Source: Phallusia mammillata (Eukaryota). Taken from it: 64,000 bases of DNA. Of the stretch, positions 1-6,000 are shown one piece after another. Location: positions 24,118,001-24,182,000 of the forward strand of contig OZ281496.1 in assembly GCA_965637545.1 (NCBI GenBank), in the 5' to 3' direction. Position numbers: made by a program. Every line of letters starts with the position of its first letter. Position 1 is the first letter of the stretch.

Positions 1-3000
1 TCTTGTTATTGGCTATACTCTTGACCTGACGGTATGTGTTGTTCCGCAAGCACACAAACGTTAAAGCATCAGAAGGGATCACTTTATTTACAGACACACG
101 TAAATAAAAAGAGTGTAGGAAGACGGCAGGTGGCGCAACAGGGTTCCAAAAACTAAAAATCGTCACGGCAGCGACGCTCCTCGTTTCGTGTTTTCAACTA
201 GTGTTGTAACGAAATATTGAAAAACGGATCTTGTGTAGAAAAATTGTCAAAAAGTACAATCAATCAAATATGGCGGTAACATAAAAGAAAAGGCAAAAAA
301 ACTTAACATAGCTGAGTTACACATATGCTATTATTGTTGGGAGTAGACTGATGTTGGGTTTGTGGCTTTAACGACAGCAAATGAGTGTATTTCAACCAGC
401 CTTTAAGATGTAAATATTCAGTTTTAGCACCTTTAAATTTTTAGATTTGAAACCTATTTAAATAGACGTGAGTATATATTGTTGTTGTGCACAAATTGGT
501 TTATGAATTGTTGACGAAGTTCCCTACTCGATGAACCATTCCAGAGAATCGCAATAAGCGCTAAATAACTAGCCCAACAATCAACACTGGCAATAGCAAA
601 GGTGCATTTGACATTAAATAGTCAAACATTTTTCTGGTAAAAACATTATAGGAACGGTGCAGGTGTCGTCTAAATCGGATGCAAAAATTTACAGTGCTGT
701 AAAAAGTCATAAAACAATCTTTTAAAGGTTTACCGTAATTGGGGTGTTAATAGCGGCGGTTAACTGGAAGGTGCTAAAATGTGTTCGGGTTGAAAGGGCG
801 GTCTCCAATCTAGAGGCATTATCAGTTTTTTATTTGCATGTTTGCCAAAGAGAAGCTATAAAAACACACAATGGGGAAATTCCTAGTTGCTTTTCAACTC
901 AACAACAAAATCAACAAAAAAGACGTTCTGTGGTTTTTCTTTAGGCCGTTGTGTCGAAGTCCGTGTTAAGGGATTTCTAACTACTCCTTTATCAATTTTT
1001 TCCTTTATTAAATCATATTACAAACTAACGAAACTTTAAGGTTATAGAAATTAATTTTTGGTTCCAAGTTTATGCCCAACGAAAGGTTTGGATACTGGTT
1101 TAATTGCTAGCCGTTGAAACCAGCGGTAAGGTCACGTTTTTAGATCTACTTGGAGGCTGTTTTTCCCGTTAGCGTGGTTCGTAAATTTGTCACCGACAAA
1201 CAAATAAATCGTTGTAGCACTTTGAAGAAGACAGAGTTCATAGCAGCACTGTTGGATTCGACCATTGCACCACTAAAGAAATTTCACACAGTATATTCCT
1301 TCCCGCGATGTAACCAATAATAACTTTACAACCTTCTTGATTACTTCAGTGGATCAAAAGAGTCCAGAGTAATTTCGGGTTGCAATATTTGCATTGTCTG
1401 TTTCATGCTGTCCTCCTGAAAAAAAAACTTTACGTTCAATTTTTTTCAGAGCTAAACTTTAGTATACGACTGTCGTTTTTTTGTCGTATTATGTGCTGGT
1501 TGTTTTTGATAGTGGGTAAATGGTTTTAATGGTTATCGTTGGTATGGTCGACTACAGTTGATCGTGTTTGACTGTTGTAGGTTTTTTTTTGTCCCAATGT
1601 TGTTTCTTACAACAACAAAAGTTATCAGTTATGTATAGTTTAAAAATGTATGCTATTGGCCTTCGTTTCACTAAGTAAAGTAGAAGAGAGTAAGAGCAGA
1701 AGTTTTAAAAGGAAAGAAAAATCGTAATAGTACTTTTGCTATTCTTTGTCTGGTCAGACGTTTTCGATCGTCTACTAGTTCTTTGGTAGTAGAATTGGAA
1801 TCATATTGTCTTGGTTGCGAGACGGGTTTCATCTGAGATAGTTTGTTTTCTTCTTGCATTATCCATGCCAGCTTTGACGACCTCATTATCTTCCGAAGAA
1901 TCTCACTTTGGTTCTCGTAGTTCTCTTCAGGCTGATGTGATGTTATAAGTATGGTGACAAGAAAAAAGAGAGATTGAGTTTAAAGTTTACTTTCCGAAGA
2001 AAAAAACATAGAGTATTAGATTAGGTCCATAAAATGTCTTAATAATCAGGAGGTATAAGAATTGGAAAAAGGGAAAGGAGACAAAGAAGAAAGTTGACAT
2101 TGTGATAACGCTCAGATTAGTATTTTATGTTTTCACCTAATTTATCAAGCCTTTCGGTTTGGCCTTTCACGCATTTAGTTTTCCACTCCTTATTGTCTTT
2201 ACCCGAATCTTTTGATTATTTTTACCTTTATTGTCACGTCAGGTTGAGAAAGTTGGATGTTTAAACGTGTAAGCTCACCGAGTGGATCGTCGAACAGCTG
2301 CTTTCCTAGATCTAAACACAAAAAAGTTTGTTGGAAAACAAGTAAAACAGCCAGTGCAAATTATGCTAATTGCTTCATGATTTGGGTGCCGAACCAACTT
2401 GTGTTATAATTTTTGAACACGAAAGGCTCGATGAAACAGAACACTTGTATGATATAATTCATAAACCTCTTTAGCTTCAAAGTCTAGTTTAAATGCTTGT
2501 AATGCTACTTGGCACTGACAAAGTTCACATGCACATAAAATGGTACCACGCGTTTCACATATACCGTTTTGCTGCTTGCTAGCCCTTCGCTTTGGTGTCC
2601 TGACAGGATGAACTTCGTCAGGGGACGGAAGGCGAATTATCGGGGATCCATTTTTGGTCGTTTTTGTTTCACCTCCGAACGGTTGCATATCGAAAGCATC
2701 ACGTGACTGCTTTGTCTAAAAATTGGCCAAAAGTTTATTGGGTTTGTTCTATGGAATTGCTATGACACAAGGTCAGTCTTTTACATTTCTGCAGTACAAT
2801 GCTAAATTACCTTTAAATGGTATTTTCAGTGTTATGTTAAGAAATGAGAACACAGAAGAAGTGTTAAAAGAGACCAGTTGTATAAAGTGCTTAAAAGAAA
2901 AAAAAACGTTGAAGTTTATGGACAGGTTAGGCAAGAAAGTACCGATTTTGAAGAACGTGCAAGTTTCTTATCGTGGTGAGGCTTAGAATAGGAAGAAGAA

Positions 3001-6000
3001 GCAGGCAAAGGTTTTTCTGATGTAGAAACAGAAGGTTGGCTTAACTTCTCTGCTTCTGTAAGTATATCAATCAAGTCTTGCCCATCCAAATCATCAGCAG
3101 TGACTTGATGTTTCGAAGCTTTCCACTTGCTTTCGTAACTCTTCAGCCAAGTATCCTGCTTTGCATCTTTACGTACGGACTTCATTAAACTATGTACAGT
3201 ATCATAGGTTGAATCTACGTTTTCCGATTCGTCTTCAAATGATGTTTCAGCCACTTTTCTTGCTTCTTTTAACAAGAGATAGCCGTCTTCGCCTGAAAAT
3301 CGGTCCAAAGTTGAATCCAGTACCGACACTGGAGCACCAGTTGGCCGCGAGTTTTTGCTTTGTACAGCATCAAGTGATTGTTGTCTAGGTAGATTCTTGC
3401 CAGGATCGGGATTCATATAAAGTGAACCTTCCGGTGATTCAAAACAGTACGAATGCACGCCTTGTCTATCCGTAGACGAACTAACGTCGCTACTCGTTGC
3501 CGAGTAGATTGACAACGAACCCATAGAAGAAGACTTTGCACCTAAAGAGTCGTGGAGAAATTGTGGAGGCTTCGGAGGAATTGCTGGGTGGTCACGTGGT
3601 GGAAGAGCAGGAGGAGAGTCCGATTTATTTTCATCTGGCATCATATGCTTGTATTTAGCCTGAATCTTTGCATATGATACATTCATGTAGCTTCGATCGG
3701 AGGCCGCATCATCAATCACAGTTTCATGCATGTCAGATAAGAACGTTTGGTCAGCGGTGGACGGTTGTTCAGGTTCTGCACAAACCCGGTTGTTTTCAAC
3801 CCTACCACCTGATGAAGTCCCTGGTGTGTCACTGATCATCGATTGCAAAGTTCCAATCACTTCATTGAATCCTGTGTACAGGCTTGAAGCACTATTGCGT
3901 CGCCCAACAGGCTTCTCACTTGTTTGTGACTCACGTTTGATCATGGCTGGAGGCAATGAGTTATGCTGATTGGCTCTTAATTCCTGTTGTTGTTTTTCAG
4001 TTTCATCCTTATTTTGTCCTTTACTTTTCGGCTTAGGTTGGGAAAGATATTTTGCTGCGCACTCTTGAATTTCTGATATTTTAGCATAATTGTCATCATC
4101 TTCTTCATCATTGCCATTTAGAGTTGGGCCAGGCACCTGGTTTTCTGGCTTTTTAATTGATGGAGATCCTGCATCTGACTTATGCTTCTTACGCAACTTC
4201 CTCTGATTGACAAAATCTTTAAGATTTTTGAGAGAAGCTTTCGCTCTTTCAACGGAGGCAATTGTCTGGTCAATGTACGCTTGCTTTTGTATTCGTTTTG
4301 CTGGGGGCAAGTTTGGAGAGTTAAACCTCGATTCCAAATACTTCTTGCTGATTGGTGAGTTTGAGAGGGCGGGGTCGTTGAAGATGTTTAAAAGGTCATT
4401 CGAGGTTGCGTATTCGCTTTCACTGCTCGATTGCTCACTGAGTGAGACTTGGCGAACAGGATACTTAGATGCTGATTTTCCTGGGATGTTTGAAGTTGAG
4501 GTTGTGGCCTCTAATATATCTACGTCTTCCTGTTTTGGCGAAGGACCGTGGAAAAGAAACAAAACAGATTGTAAAAGAAGGTGTAGTTAAAAGAAAGAGG
4601 TATAGTTAAAGGGAAAGTTTGTGGTATTGACAAAAGTAATTAAAAAGAGAAAAAAAGCAAAGAAAAAGGGAAGTTTATGAACAAACTAAAAATGTATAAA
4701 TGGCGATTGTTATTTTCATGTGTATTTAGATGGAAGAATTTTGGTGTCAACCTCTATTTAGGGTTATATTGAATGGAACTTTGTATACTGTGTTTCTAAT
4801 TTCTTACACTTACGGTTTTGGTCGGAGTATAAACAGTTCTGGCAGGGGAAGTCCCGAGCGATGACGGTGGGGATTTCCCGGTTTCAAGTTGTGCAATTCT
4901 TCTCTTTAGTTTTGCATTTTCCGTCTCCAGTTCAACGATTCTTTTGTTCAGATCGACGACCTGACAAAAACAGAAATGTTTTAGATGTTTACACAATCTA
5001 TGTATTACATACTGTACTACGTGAAACTATTGTGACGCGCGTTCTTGCACTGGTTATCGTACAAGATTATAGTTTTCTTCCTTTTATGTGCATCATATTG
5101 GGCCTAAATTAGAGATGTCTTACTGTTTGGAGTATCATATTGGAATATTAGATTATTGTTTTTTTTTCCTGTACGGAACATCGCATTGGTGTAGGCTTTT
5201 TTCCTATTTAGAGTTTAATATTCAAACTTTAAACGGATGTAACTACTTATTTTTCCCCATCTGCTTACCAGTAAAGTTGACTGTGCCTCTCAGGTGAATT
5301 TTATCGGGCTTGTTTTGTCAGTAAGTTCGTGTGTGTTGCCGTACTAGTTTGATTGTGTTTCTTCATACTGTTTTAAGTCATATATTTTCATAAACATTTC
5401 TATTCTTTTTATTTATGTGATTGGGAATGTTACGGTGGCCAAACGGCATGAGCAAAATTGCAAACTCCTCCCAACATTCGGAAATACCATTATCGGTGCG
5501 TCACATTCGCAGTGTTGTTTTGCGTATTTATTCGATTATAAGTCGCAGCTCATGAATTTTTTTAACCTACTGTTTGTGCGATCCAGCGCGGCTTCATATT
5601 TAAGTTATACCGATAATATTTCTACACCCATGCGATTTCGCATTTAATTAAATCCTTTTGCATGGCTTCACACGTCAACATATGCTCAGCTGGGTACAAT
5701 TATTTGCGAAGCTAAGAATTTTTTTTTGCTGCCAGGCATAATATCAAGTATATAGAGCTCTTCTGGCACAGATAATTTTATTCCTTCATGTCAACGTACT
5801 TTCTGATGGTAGAAAGCACGTCGGGTCCATACAAACCTTTCAATGAATAAAATTACATTTGCCAGAAGTGCTCTATAAACTTAAGGCTAAGAATTTGTTG
5901 ATAAAAGTATTATTAAACAAAAGTACCAGACATAAAAAATGCAACTTACAATCAAGTAAATACGGTAACAACAATGACGAAATAGTTGTTGGATACAGTC

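What the first reader, a model, noticed from the sequence alone, without database searches (positions are those of the whole stretch)
2916..4529. A 1.6-kb exon could turn CED-6/GULP1 into a Dok/Gab-like phosphotyrosine scaffold
Seen: a stop-free ~537-codon frame in a GULP1 intron with an in-phase acceptor, carrying YMNV and YMNP (YxN), VSYAKI, DNYAKI and STYDTV (ITIM/ITSM-like), DGYLLL, and SH3-type PPALPPR and PAIPPKP. Established: GULP1/CED-6 is normally a small PTB-coiled-coil adaptor for CED-1/Draper/MEGF10/LRP1-type receptors, without such a tail. Inference: alternative splicing gives a ~750-850-aa isoform that couples the engulfment-receptor-binding PTB domain to SH2/SH3 effectors or phosphatases. 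I do not know of a described GULP1 isoform like this.
Basis: partly seen in the sequence, partly recalled or inferred. Interest (0 to 1): 0.68.

Follow-up and report, generated by a model that had tools for sequence, protein, structure and literature searches.

The report
Large optional exon in tunicate GULP
A 1.6-kb stretch inside a sea-squirt engulfment-adaptor gene is a real, conserved, optional coding exon that adds a long flexible docking tail; its proposed phosphotyrosine-signalling role is plausible but untested.

Summary
Minus-strand 2916..4586 is a 556-codon open frame (chance about 5e-14) with an in-phase acceptor at 4531-4530.

It is a coding exon of the tunicate GULP1/CED-6 orthologue. 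PTB exons upstream match human GULP1 best. A leucine-zipper exon precedes it, and exons for the conserved GULP C-terminus follow it.

With the weak donor at 2942-2941 it becomes a 1587-nt, phase 0/0 cassette. By arithmetic the products are about 312 aa skipped, 841 aa included and 746 aa read through.

Homologous inserts occur in Clavelina, Styela and a protein identical to Ciona GULP1. Inclusion and skipping are both annotated.

The insert is mostly disordered with seven conserved islands. Only 3 of 17 tyrosines are conserved. DNYAKI, VSYAKI and YMNP are not conserved, and motif counts do not exceed shuffles.

Two invariant tyrosines lie in predicted helices. YxN and PxxPx[KR] are each conserved in 8 of 11 sequences. 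A docking tail is likely. A Dok/Gab-like phosphotyrosine scaffold remains a hypothesis. I found no paper on it.

The parts
14552..14560 (-). Candidate first coding exon (ATG GTT CTG, 'MVL') followed by GTAAG
   Evidence: It is the only match to an 'MVL + donor' pattern in 13393..46000 on the minus strand. Orthologues start MVLS/MVLG. Inferred, with no transcript evidence.
13321..13392 (-). PTB exon (24 codons, 'SWNKGKWLHSHETLINSKATYIVK')
   Evidence: tblastn with the Clavelina, Ciona-like and Styela proteins. Splice sites read and tabulated.
13076..13246 (-). PTB exon (57 codons)
   Evidence: Best PDB match is 6itu_A, human GULP1, E 9.3e-15. The next family is Dab2 at 1.9e-4. tblastn.
8772..8906 (-). 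PTB exon (45 codons)
   Evidence: Best PDB match is 6itu_A GULP1, E 3e-12. The next family is Numb at 0.016. It is 80% identical to Clavelina.
7739..7831 (-). Last PTB exon and linker (31 codons)
   Evidence: tblastn. Splice sites.
4814..4960 (-). Leucine-zipper exon (49 codons). Leu at 4, 11, 18 and 25; Ile8, Asn15 and Ile22 at the alternate position. Ends in phase 0, donor GTAAGT.
   Evidence: Pfam bZIP_2 gives E 5.4e-4 at 20.4 bits, below the 22.3 cut-off. tblastn to the orthologues' zipper.
2943..4529 (-). The finding: a 1587-nt (529-codon) cassette exon, phase 0 at both ends. Acceptor AG at 4531-4530, weak donor GTACTT at 2942-2937.
   Evidence: Homologous inserts sit in PTB-bearing proteins of Clavelina, Styela and the Ciona-identical entry.
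2916..2942 (-). Read-through of the weak donor: eight more codons (VLSCLTCP) and a TAA stop. AATAAA lies at 2739 downstream.
   Evidence: Clavelina CAK8672011 (P0003) is annotated with the same kind of read-through, '..PDK|VLISSF..'.
4191..4283 (-). Island 1 (aa 83-113, QAYIDQTIASVERAKASLKNLKDFVNQRKLR): basic amphipathic helix
   Evidence: Its core motif is in 7 of 11 sequences, plus a diverged Styela form. AlphaFold helix 76-120 with block-mean pLDDT 78-90.
3837..3902 (-). Island 2 (aa 210-231, RRNSASSLYTGFNEVIGTLQSM): basophilic Ser site followed by a short helix
   Evidence: AlphaFold helix 221-233. In the Styela-like sequences the Tyr here sits in a YxN context.
3678..3734 (-). Island 3 (aa 266-284, ..HETVIDD..SYMNV): ETx[IL]xD followed by YxN (Y281)
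   Evidence: Found in 8 of 11 sequences. It lies in a low-confidence, non-helical stretch.
3564..3620 (-). Island 4 (aa 304-322, PPALPPR..PAIPPKPP): class-II type polyproline PxxPx[RK]
   Evidence: Found at the aligned site in 8 of 11 sequences. The PPxPPKP form is in 6 of 11.
3429..3503 (-). Island 5 (aa 343-367): Ser-rich acidic stretch followed by 'HSYCFESP'
   Evidence: Alignment (consensus SSSDxSSxDxxSGHSFxF). Low pLDDT.
3267..3317 (-). Island 6 (aa 405-421, STLDRFSGEDGYLLL) with invariant Y417
   Evidence: TLxx[FL]xGxxGY[ML]xL is in 11 of 11 sequences. AlphaFold helices 403-410 and 413-437, block-mean pLDDT 77-88.
3168..3221 (-). Island 7 (aa 437-454, NVDSTYDTVHSLMKSVRK) with invariant Y442
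   Evidence: Y[DE]xVxx[LFM]M is in 11 of 11 sequences and YDxV in 10 of 11. It has the highest helical hydrophobic moment in the exon (0.52 against a mean of 0.20). AlphaFold helix 440-458.
2565..2715 (-). Exon after the cassette: 'TKQSRDAFDMQPFGG..LPSPDEVHP..' (151 nt)
   Evidence: Matches the C-terminal part of Clavelina 'GULP1-like isoform X4' (E 1.7e-6) and of CAK8672010 (E 4.6e-5). Both 4814->2715 and 2943->2715 keep the frame.
2226..2311 (-). Candidate exon 'DLGKQLFDDPLGEL..' (86 nt)
   Evidence: Read, with splice sites. Placed by position only. No significant hit.
1734..1931 (-). Candidate second optional cassette (198 nt, phase 0/0, donor GTACTA)
   Evidence: It sits where Ciona X1, Clavelina CAK8672010 and Styela X1 have an optional 70-87-aa segment. 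BLASTP similarity is not significant. Only a short shared motif appears in a MAFFT alignment.
1341..1415 (-). Terminal coding exon '..EITLDSFDPLK' plus TAA
   Evidence: Weak tblastn matches to the C-termini of the Clavelina, Ciona-like and Styela proteins (E 0.09-0.5). All end in LD[AS]FDPLK.

Best explanation
Window 4529..2943 (minus strand) is a genuine, optional coding exon of the tunicate orthologue of the engulfment adaptor GULP1/CED-6.

The exon sits between the leucine-zipper exon and the exons for the conserved C-terminus. In flies and mammals that C-terminus binds clathrin and AP-2. Both ends of the exon are in phase 0. Skipping it gives a canonical adaptor of about 312 aa. Including it gives about 841 aa. 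Reading through its weak donor gives about 746 aa without the C-terminus.

The 529 added residues are mostly disordered and Ser-rich. They carry seven islands conserved across ascidians:
- four amphipathic helices, two of which hold invariant tyrosines (GY[ML]xL and YDxV);
- a YxN site;
- a PxxPx[KR] polyproline;
- an acidic Ser-rich stretch.

The most likely mechanism has three parts. The PTB domain binds the NPxY tail of CED-1/MEGF10/LRP-type receptors. The zipper makes a dimer. The insert gives the long isoform extra docking sites for partners the short isoform cannot recruit, namely SH3 proteins, possibly SH2 proteins, and helix-binding proteins.

Shown here: the exon, its phase, its homologues, the gene architecture, the annotated inclusion and skipping in relatives, and the conservation pattern.

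Inferred: splicing in this species, dimerisation, every partner, and any phosphorylation.
For: Open frame and coding signal:
- 556 stop-free codons, chance 4.9e-14, with coding-like codon-position GC.
- Homologues at E 1.5e-74 and 5.2e-23.
- A profile search of 1.84e9 representatives gives 9 hits. The 2 that carry a Pfam PID domain also end in the GULP C-terminus.

Gene identity:
- PTB exons match GULP1 (6itu_A) at E 3e-12 and 9.3e-15. The next family scores 0.016 and 1.9e-4.
- The C-terminal exon matches Clavelina GULP1-like X4 at E 1.7e-6.

Inclusion and skipping in relatives:
- Ciona X2 (308 aa) is identical to the 848-aa entry at 198/199 and 84/85 residues on either side of a 453-aa insert.
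- Clavelina X4 (293 aa) relates to CAK8672010 (914 aa) in the same way.
- Styela X1 and X2 include the insert.
- The named species cover three ascidian orders.

Constraint:
- 11 of 11 sequences keep the two Tyr blocks, and 8 of 11 keep YxN and PxxPx[KR].
- Among seven near-identical copies of P0002, 1 variable site falls in 613 exon-homologous residues. Five fall in 77 read-through residues (Fisher p 8e-5).

Disorder and helices:
- Mean pLDDT is 53.8, with 296 of 537 residues below 50. The confident helices coincide with islands 1, 2, 6 and 7.
- Composition falls on the disordered side of the charge-hydropathy boundary.

C-terminus function: from passages read in PMC4055271 and PMC3338440.
Against: - No transcript, junction read or peptide from this species was available. 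All relatives are computed gene models.
- Current Ciona RefSeq isoforms X1 and X2 both lack the exon. The 848-aa entry that includes it is a UniParc record with no source name in my look-up.
- Clavelina RefSeq X1-X3 start inside the exon and are not joined to the PTB exons.
- No short Styela isoform was seen among the 25 hits, so the exon may be constitutive there.
- The donor GTACTT is weak, and the acceptor has a poor pyrimidine run just upstream.
- No partner was identified. Pfam, PDB and the protein atlas gave nothing for the insert.
Confidence: 0.65

Rival explanations
1. One reading: the insert is a Dok/Gab/Shc-like phosphotyrosine scaffold. Kinases acting at the engulfment receptor phosphorylate Y281 (YxN), Y417 and Y442. 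Grb2-type and Nck/SHP-type SH2 proteins then dock, helped by the PxxPx[KR] SH3 ligand.
For: - Tyr is enriched among the most conserved columns: 3 of 17 Tyr against 11 of 520 other residues, Fisher p 0.008.
- Every one of the 11 sequences has a YxN in island 3 (8 sequences) or island 2 (the 3 Styela-like ones).
- Grb2-family SH2 domains bind pYxN (passage in PMC6669380).
- YDxV is in 10 of 11 sequences. It matches the core of the Nck SH2 consensus pYDxV(AYST)x(DEC) (passage in PMC2661883).
- [ST]xYxxV fits an ITIM/ITSM pattern in 10 of 11 sequences (read; the pattern itself is recalled).
- PxxPx[KR] is conserved in 8 of 11.
- The receptor pathway uses tyrosine kinases: Jedi-1/Draper ITAMs recruit Syk/Shark (passage in PMC4055271).
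Against: - Motif counts in the window's sequence are not above shuffles.
- DNYAKI, VSYAKI and YMNP are not conserved.
- Y417 and Y442 lie in predicted helices with high hydrophobic moment. Their conservation may therefore be structural.
- The flanks of YDxV do not fit the rest of the Nck consensus: +4 is A/Y/S/T in 1 of 11 sequences.
- The island-2 Tyr is Phe in the Ciona-like protein.
- There is no homology to Dok, Gab, IRS or Shc tails.
- Phosphorylation is not testable here.
Confidence: 0.3
2. The exon mainly serves a separate, PTB-less product. Transcripts start in or just before it and encode insert plus C-terminus. The tail then acts on its own and is not an extension of the receptor-binding adaptor.
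For: - Clavelina RefSeq LOC143465532 isoforms X1-X3 (505, 488 and 473 aa) begin at an internal Met of the exon and run into the GULP C-terminus. X4 (293 aa) has the PTB domain without the exon. The four accessions are consecutive and lie on one contig.
- Styela X3 (832 aa) begins in the zipper and lacks the PTB domain.
Against: - The internal Met of Clavelina is not conserved in the window's exon (alignment).
- The acceptor at 4531-4530 is in phase with the zipper exon only 284 nt upstream.
- Styela X1 and X2, Clavelina CAK8672010 and the 848-aa entry all join PTB and insert.
- The six tail-only hits (P0005-8, P0010, P0011) look like single open frames called on genomic contigs. They read on past the likely donor, '..K|VL..'. 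They are therefore no evidence for a separate protein.
Confidence: 0.15
3. In this species the exon is constitutive. It is a fixed lineage-specific insertion and not a regulated switch, and the short canonical GULP is not made.
For: - All three Styela RefSeq isoforms contain the insert.
- No short Styela form was among the 25 hits.
- The flanking introns are short, 284 and 227 nt.
Against: - Skipped forms are annotated in Ciona and Clavelina.
- The exon is symmetric in phase.
- Its donor (GTACTT) departs from the other donors of the gene (GTAAAC, GTGAGA, GTACGT, GTGAGA, GTAAGT, GTATAT, GTAAAA).
- One search scored only 220 word-filtered candidates, so it can miss proteins.
Confidence: 0.2
4. 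A chance open frame, a transposon remnant or a dead exon inside an intron.
For: Pfam finds no family in it.
Against: - Chance of the open frame is 4.9e-14.
- Homologues come from at least three ascidian orders and keep conserved islands.
- Variation among close copies is low compared with the read-through.
- There are no transposon domains.
Confidence: 0.01

Closest known systems
Canonical GULP1/CED-6 (human GULP1 PTB structure 6itu; Ciona intestinalis XP_026693934, 308 aa; Clavelina XP_076819992, 293 aa)
   Same: The window has the same PTB domain, with GULP1 as the best PDB match. It has the same leucine zipper. It has the same C-terminal 'D[AE]FDM..F' and 'LD[AS]FDPLK' segments. The skipped form of the window's gene would be about 312 aa.
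   Different: The canonical forms have nothing between the zipper and the C-terminus. Here 529 residues can be inserted.
Predicted long forms already in databases: Styela clava XP_039266394/95 ('uncharacterized protein LOC120341888'), Clavelina lepadiformis CAK8672010/11, UniParc UPI00089DD089 (848 aa)
   Same: The architecture is the same: PTB, zipper, homologous insert, GULP C-terminus. The conserved islands are the same.
   Different: Identity to the window's insert is only 18-28%. The closest relative, unnamed P0002, is 39-41% identical. Insert lengths differ: 453 aa in the Ciona-like protein, 534 in Clavelina and 529 here. The Styela-like sequences lack island 3's YxN and the polyproline. 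They carry YxN in island 2 instead. None of these proteins carries a functional name for the insert.
Dab2 p96/p67 (Disabled-2)
   Same: It is a Dab-type PTB endocytic adaptor with two isoforms that differ by one central exon. It has a proline-rich region that binds the SH3 domains of Grb2 and Src (passages in PMC9821069). It is the best functional analogy for an optional exon that changes the partner set of a PTB clathrin adaptor.
   Different: There is no sequence relation to the insert. The content of the Dab2 central exon, endocytic motifs, is recalled and was not checked here. Dab2 has no leucine zipper.
Dok / Gab / IRS / FRS2 docking proteins and Shc
   Same: The layout is alike: an N-terminal receptor- or membrane-targeting domain, then a long disordered tail with Tyr motifs and PxxP. 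Shc also pairs a PTB domain with YxN sites (recalled).
   Different: No homology was found. Only three tyrosines are conserved, and two of them lie in predicted helices. The PTB here is Dab-like, the kind that binds unphosphorylated NPxY (recalled). Phosphorylation is unknown.

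Membership tests
GULP1/CED-6 engulfment adaptors | N-terminal Dab-like PTB/PID domain closest to GULP1 | tested here: met
   Window exons 8906..8772 and 13246..13076 hit 6itu_A (GULP1) at E 3e-12 and 9.3e-15. The next families score 0.016 and 1.9e-4. The Clavelina orthologue hits GULP1 at 2.6e-44 and Dab2 at 9.8e-16.
GULP1/CED-6 engulfment adaptors | Leucine zipper / coiled coil after the PTB domain | tested here: met
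   Leu at 4, 11, 18 and 25 of exon 4960..4814, with Ile8, Asn15 and Ile22 between them. Pfam bZIP_2 gives E 5.4e-4, below its cut-off. Dimerisation itself was not tested.
GULP1/CED-6 engulfment adaptors | C-terminal region with the conserved motifs used for clathrin/AP-2 binding (DLF/DPF-type; PMC4055271, PMC3338440) | tested here: inconclusive
   Exon 2715..2565 matches the C-terminal part of Clavelina GULP1-like X4 (E 1.7e-6). The last exon ends ..LDSFDPLK like all three named orthologues (E 0.09-0.5). 'QLFDD' and 'FDPL' resemble DLF/DPF, but binding was not tested.
GULP1/CED-6 engulfment adaptors | Binds NPxY tails of CED-1/Draper/MEGF10/Jedi-1/LRP1 | not testable with these tools
   No receptor sequence of this species is in hand, and there is no binding assay.
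Dok/Gab/IRS/FRS2-type docking proteins | Sequence homology of the tail or targeting domain to a member | tested here: not met
   Pfam finds 0 families in the insert. The PDB profile search gives only a chance hit at E 0.13. The profile search of 1.84e9 representatives finds 9 proteins; the 2 with a Pfam domain are GULP-type and the other 7 have none.
Dok/Gab/IRS/FRS2-type docking proteins | Long disordered tail after a receptor-targeting domain | tested here: met
   Mean pLDDT is 53.8 and 296 of 537 residues fall below 50. Mean hydropathy 0.398 is below the 0.418 boundary.
Dok/Gab/IRS/FRS2-type docking proteins | Several conserved tyrosines in SH2-binding contexts | tested here: inconclusive
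   3 of 17 Tyr are conserved. YxN is in 8 of 11 at one site, or 11 of 11 counting island 2. YDxV is in 10 of 11 and GY[ML]xL in 11 of 11. Two of the three lie in predicted helices.
Dok/Gab/IRS/FRS2-type docking proteins | Tyrosine phosphorylation on receptor activation and SH2 recruitment | not testable with these tools
   This needs phosphoproteomics or binding assays.
ITIM/ITSM-bearing inhibitory tails | [ILVST]xYxx[ILV] motif (consensus recalled) | tested here: met
   [ST]xYxxV at Y442 is in 10 of 11 sequences; the exception is NIYDGV in P0008. GY[ML]xL at Y417 has an acidic or small residue at -2 and does not fit. A motif match only: ITIMs are defined in receptor tails, and function was not tested.
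ITAM | Two YxxL/I sites spaced by about 6-12 residues (recalled) | tested here: not met
   The spacing between Y417 and Y442 is 17-34 residues in the 11 sequences.

The most novel reading that the evidence does not exclude
The long isoform is a zipper-dimerised, receptor-bound docking platform found only in tunicates. After tyrosine phosphorylation at YxN and YDxV, and through its PxxPx[KR] site, it would recruit Grb2/Nck/Crk-class SH2-SH3 adaptors directly to CED-1/MEGF10-type receptors. One alternatively spliced protein would then join the CED-6 arm of corpse engulfment to actin and Ras signalling. Inclusion of the exon would be a cell-type switch, for example in phagocytic blood cells of colonial ascidians.
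Probability: 0.2. Interest if true: 0.65.

Novelty: new variant of a known kind. Interest (0 to 1): 0.4.

Why it matters
GULP/CED-6 is usually treated as a small, invariant adaptor made of a PTB domain, a zipper and a short clathrin-binding tail.

Ascidians carry a conserved optional exon of 450-530 codons that nearly triples the protein. It adds a set of conserved docking elements. This gives a natural pair of isoforms for asking what, beyond clathrin, an engulfment adaptor can recruit.

Tunicates rely on massive programmed phagocytosis, and Ciona is genetically tractable, so the question can be tested directly.

The result is modest. It is a lineage-specific splice variant whose sequence is already in databases, unnamed. 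Its signalling role is still a hypothesis.

Tried and rejected
- **Third homology search:** the search with the tail-only alignment A3 returned only P0002 among 7999 scored candidates. It did not even recover the alignment's own members. I treat it as swamped by low-complexity words and uninformative.
- **Pfam:** nothing on the insert at E up to 1.
- **PDB:** the profile search of A2 gave only CEP85 at E 0.13, which I take as chance.
- **Protein atlas:** the best score for the whole insert was 0.84, below the usable level. Residues 395-470 gave no usable hit.
- **Second candidate cassette 1931..1734:** BLASTP against the Clavelina and Ciona-like proteins was not significant (E 29 and 0.18).
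- **dN/dS across tunicates:** not possible. I used neither DNA search nor search for related loci on collections. As a substitute I compared variation among seven near-identical protein copies.
- **Fold search:** not run, because the model's pTM of 0.25 would give meaningless matches.
- **ITAM reading:** rejected on spacing.
- **Transposon or chance open frame:** rejected.
- **Identity figures:** the 'tail' identities between Clavelina, Ciona-like and Styela are inflated, because a few PTB columns fell inside the range. I use only the rows against P0001.
- **Taxonomy of unnamed hits:** I did not pursue P0002, P0005-8, P0010 or P0011.
- **Other checks:** Rfam and tRNA scans of the window found nothing.
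- **Supplements:** paper supplements were closed and were not needed.

Full report
**The observation**

The minus strand of 2916..4586 is open for 556 codons. It is the second longest open frame of any of the six frames in the window. With a stop frequency of 0.0536 per codon its chance is 4.9e-14.

Reading the sequence confirms the splice geometry.
- An AG lies at 4531-4530, so an exon would begin at 4529 with GAA in phase 0.
- The exon upstream ends at 4814 in phase 0 and is followed by GTAAGT.

GC by codon position (0.497/0.434/0.365) is coding-like.

The window has no N. I do not take it for human, because all its relatives are ascidian.

**The gene**

I searched the model exon by exon and never joined the exons.

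tblastn with proteins returned by the searches places PTB exons at 13392..13321, 13246..13076, 8906..8772 and 7831..7739. Two of them, searched alone against the PDB, hit human GULP1 (6itu_A) at E 9.3e-15 and 3e-12. The next family scored 1.9e-4 (Dab2) and 0.016 (Numb).

A single candidate first exon, ATG GTT CTG followed by GTAAG, lies at 14560.

Exon 4960..4814 is a four-heptad leucine zipper. Leu stands at positions 4, 11, 18 and 25, with Ile8, Asn15 and Ile22 between them. Pfam bZIP_2 scores E 5.4e-4, under its cut-off.

Downstream of the big frame three further exons follow.
- 2715..2565 encodes 'TKQSRDAFDMQPFGG..LPSPDEVHP'. It matches the C-terminal part of Clavelina 'PTB domain-containing engulfment adapter protein 1-like isoform X4' at E 1.7e-6.
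- 2311..2226 is placed by position only.
- 1415..1344 ends ..LDSFDPLK, as do the Clavelina, Ciona-like and Styela proteins (E 0.09-0.5).

Passages in PMC4055271 and PMC3338440 say that this C-terminal region of GULP/Ced-6 carries the DLF/DPF-type clathrin and AP-2 binding sequences.

**The exon as a cassette**

Inside the frame, TCG|GTACTT at 2943|2942 is a possible donor in phase 0. The acceptor before 2715 is also in phase 0. So 4529..2943 is 1587 nt, or 529 codons, symmetric in phase. Both 4814->2715 and 2943->2715 keep the frame.

By arithmetic over the exon table:

| Form | Length |
|---|---|
| Big exon skipped | 312 aa |
| Big exon included | 841 aa |
| Both cassettes included (with candidate 1931..1734) | 907 aa |
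| Weak donor read through to the TAA at 2918-2916 | 746 aa |

The flanking introns are short, 284 and 227 nt. An AATAAA lies at 2739.

The donors of the big exon and of the second candidate cassette are GTACTT and GTACTA. The other seven donors of the gene are GTAAAC, GTGAGA, GTACGT, GTGAGA, GTAAGT, GTATAT and GTAAAA.

**Relatives**

A word-indexed search with P0001 found 2 proteins among 7999 scored candidates.
- P0002, unnamed: E 1.5e-74, 41% identity.
- A 757-aa 'PID domain-containing protein' of Clavelina lepadiformis: E 5.2e-23.

A profile of the three sequences, searched against 1.84e9 representatives, found 9 proteins at E up to 1e-3. I scanned the 8 new ones with Pfam, and 2 have a PID domain.
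- The 995-aa Styela clava XP_039266394, named 'uncharacterized protein LOC120341888 isoform X1'.
- An 848-aa UniParc entry, UPI00089DD089.

Both end in the GULP C-terminus. The other six are tail-only proteins of 334-592 aa from unnamed records. Several read on past the likely donor as '..K|VL..', as the window does ('SKS|VLSCL'). I take them for single open frames called on genomic DNA.

**Inclusion and skipping in relatives**

*Ciona.* Ciona intestinalis XP_026693934 (X2, 308 aa) is identical to the 848-aa entry at 198 of 199 residues before a 453-residue insert, and at 84 of 85 after it. XP_026693933 (X1, 395 aa) adds only a second, 87-residue segment near the C-terminus.

*Clavelina.* XP_076819992 (X4, 293 aa) equals residues 1-196 of CAK8672010 (914 aa). 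It then resumes after a 534-residue insert. CAK8672011 (757 aa) reads through the insert's donor ('PDK|VLISSF').

*Styela.* X1 (995 aa) and X2 (925 aa) include the insert. X3 (832 aa) begins in the zipper.

*Results against a simple PTB-plus-insert picture.*
- Clavelina RefSeq X1-X3 (505, 488 and 473 aa) begin at a Met inside the exon and lack the PTB exons.
- Both current Ciona RefSeq isoforms lack the exon.
- No short Styela form was among the 25 hits, which scored only 220 candidates.

All of these are computed models. The named species belong to Aplousobranchia, Stolidobranchia and Phlebobranchia. No named hit lies outside ascidians.

**What the insert encodes**

Identity of P0001 to its relatives is 39% (P0002), 28% (Clavelina), 25% (Ciona-like) and 18% (Styela) over aligned columns.

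In the 11-sequence alignment A2 ten columns are invariant: T407, G413, G416, Y417, L420, D439, Y442, V445, M449 and R453. Four more are 90% conserved: Y281, P321, L408 and D443.

Motif counts over the 11 sequences:

| Motif | Sequences |
|---|---|
| TLxx[FL]xGxxGY[ML]xL | 11 of 11 |
| Y[DE]xVxx[LFM]M | 11 of 11 |
| YDxV | 10 of 11 |
| ETx[IL]xD followed by YxN | 8 of 11 |
| PxxPx[RK] at the aligned site | 8 of 11 |
| PPxPPKP | 6 of 11 |
| Helix-1 core | 7 of 11, plus a diverged Styela form |

The three Styela-like sequences lack the island-3 YxN and the polyproline. They have YxN at the island-2 tyrosine instead.

Y148 (DNYAKI), Y286 (VSYAKI) and Y371 (YMNP) are each kept in at most 4 of 11 sequences. 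Three of 17 tyrosines fall in columns that are at least 90% conserved, against 11 of 520 other residues (Fisher p 0.008).

Among seven near-identical copies of P0002, 1 site varies in 613 residues homologous to the exon. Five vary in the 77 residues beyond it (p 8e-5). This fits both constraint on the exon and the position of its 3' end.

**Structure**

AlphaFold2 on alignment A3 gives mean pLDDT 53.8 and pTM 0.25, with 296 of 537 residues below 50. The helices with block-mean pLDDT of about 70-90 are listed below.

| Helix | Location |
|---|---|
| 76-120 | island 1 |
| 145-162 | outside the islands |
| 221-233 | island 2 |
| 286-296 | outside the islands |
| 403-410, 413-437, 440-458 | islands 6 and 7 |
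| 483-496 | outside the islands |

Of the six strongest helical hydrophobic-moment windows, four fall on islands 7, 6, 1 and 2.

So the two invariant tyrosines sit at the start of predicted amphipathic helices. Y281 and the polyproline sit in low-confidence coil.

Pfam, the PDB profile search and the protein atlas gave nothing for the insert.

**Reading**

The exon is real and belongs to GULP. In ascidians it is an old, optional insert between the dimerising zipper and the clathrin-binding end. It most likely gives the long isoform extra docking sites.

- Tyr is enriched among conserved columns.
- A YxN is present in every sequence. Grb2-family SH2 domains bind pYxN (PMC6669380, passage).
- YDxV matches the core of the Nck SH2 consensus pYDxV(AYST)x(DEC) (PMC2661883, passage).
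- A class-II type polyproline is conserved.
- The receptor pathway uses Syk/Shark (PMC4055271, passage).

*Against it.*
- Motif counts in this sequence are not above shuffles.
- Half of the quoted Tyr motifs are not conserved.
- The flanks of YDxV do not fit the Nck consensus.
- The two invariant tyrosines are in predicted helices, where conservation may be structural.
- There is no homology to Dok, Gab or Shc.

The closest functional analogy is Dab2. Its p96 and p67 forms differ by a central exon, and its proline-rich domain binds the SH3 domains of Grb2 and Src (PMC9821069, passages).

**Novelty**

Long forms are already in RefSeq, GenBank and UniParc as uncharacterised predictions. The sequence is therefore not new, but the insert has no name or described function.

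Five full-text searches bear on this.

| Terms | Papers |
|---|---|
| 'gulp1' + 'ciona' | 0 |
| 'ced-6' + 'ascidian' | 0 |
| 'gulp' + 'tunicate' | 2, both irrelevant by title and abstract |
| 'gulp' + 'botryllus' | 0 |
| GULP1 + Grb2 + tyrosine phosphorylation + engulfment | 4 held the terms, 3 were listed |

None of the three listed is about GULP as a scaffold, judged by title and abstract. The library lacks most subscription journals.

**Unchecked**
- Transcripts of this species.
- Nucleotide-level selection.
- The species of the window and of the unnamed hits.
- The closed metagenome and viral collections.

Noticed in passing
window 1734..1931 (-): A second in-frame candidate cassette (198 nt, phase 0/0, 'PEENYENQSEILRKIM..') lies between exon 2311..2226 and the last exon. 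Ciona X1, Clavelina CAK8672010 and Styela X1 have an optional 70-87-aa segment at the same place. BLASTP is not significant. MAFFT shows only a short shared 'SE[IL][LI]xx[IL][LM]xS[SP]' start.
   Followed up: partly
window 2937..2942 and 1728..1733 (-): Both candidate cassettes end in unusual donors, GTACTT and GTACTA. The other seven donors of the gene are closer to consensus. ORF-level homologues from other species read through the same point as Val-Leu or Val-Ser: P0003, P0005, P0006, P0007, P0008. This hints that a weak donor is conserved.
   Followed up: partly
window 2734..2739 (-): An AATAAA lies 177 nt after the read-through stop codon, inside the intron that follows the big exon. It could serve a truncated isoform lacking the clathrin-binding C-terminus.
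   Followed up: no
P0024-P0026 (Clavelina RefSeq X1-X3), P0012 (Styela X3): RefSeq models carry the insert and the C-terminus but not the PTB domain. Three start at an internal Met of the exon and one starts in the zipper. Either the models are 5'-incomplete or alternative promoters exist.
   Followed up: partly
P0009, P0010, P0011 against the other eight sequences: The Styela-like group lacks the island-3 YxN and the PPxPPKP run. Its island-2 tyrosine sits in YxN (TYANL, LYANL, SYSNI). This may be motif relocation.
   Followed up: partly
window 56296..57249 (-): Two adjacent open frames match arylamine N-acetyltransferase. Pfam PF00797 profile positions 1-93 and 91-149 score E 4.5e-20 and 4.3e-8. 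The best PDB hits are bacterial NATs at 1.4e-15. This is a neighbouring gene with one intron or a frame break.
   Followed up: partly
window 59765..62788 (+): Two long consecutive open frames of 370 and 636 codons. The second has a partial ubiquitin C-terminal hydrolase (UCH/USP) match, E 2.4e-7. It has no PDB hit.
   Followed up: partly
window 4574..4610: A 19-nt unit repeated 1.9 times lies in the pyrimidine-rich stretch (minus strand) just upstream of the big exon's acceptor.
   Followed up: no
window about 44000: Cumulative GC skew rises from 1 to about 44 kb and falls afterwards. GC content is higher (0.42-0.45) from 44 to 54 kb. Open frames there (46608-47057, 49171-49542, 53399-54067) have no Pfam or PDB match.
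   Followed up: partly
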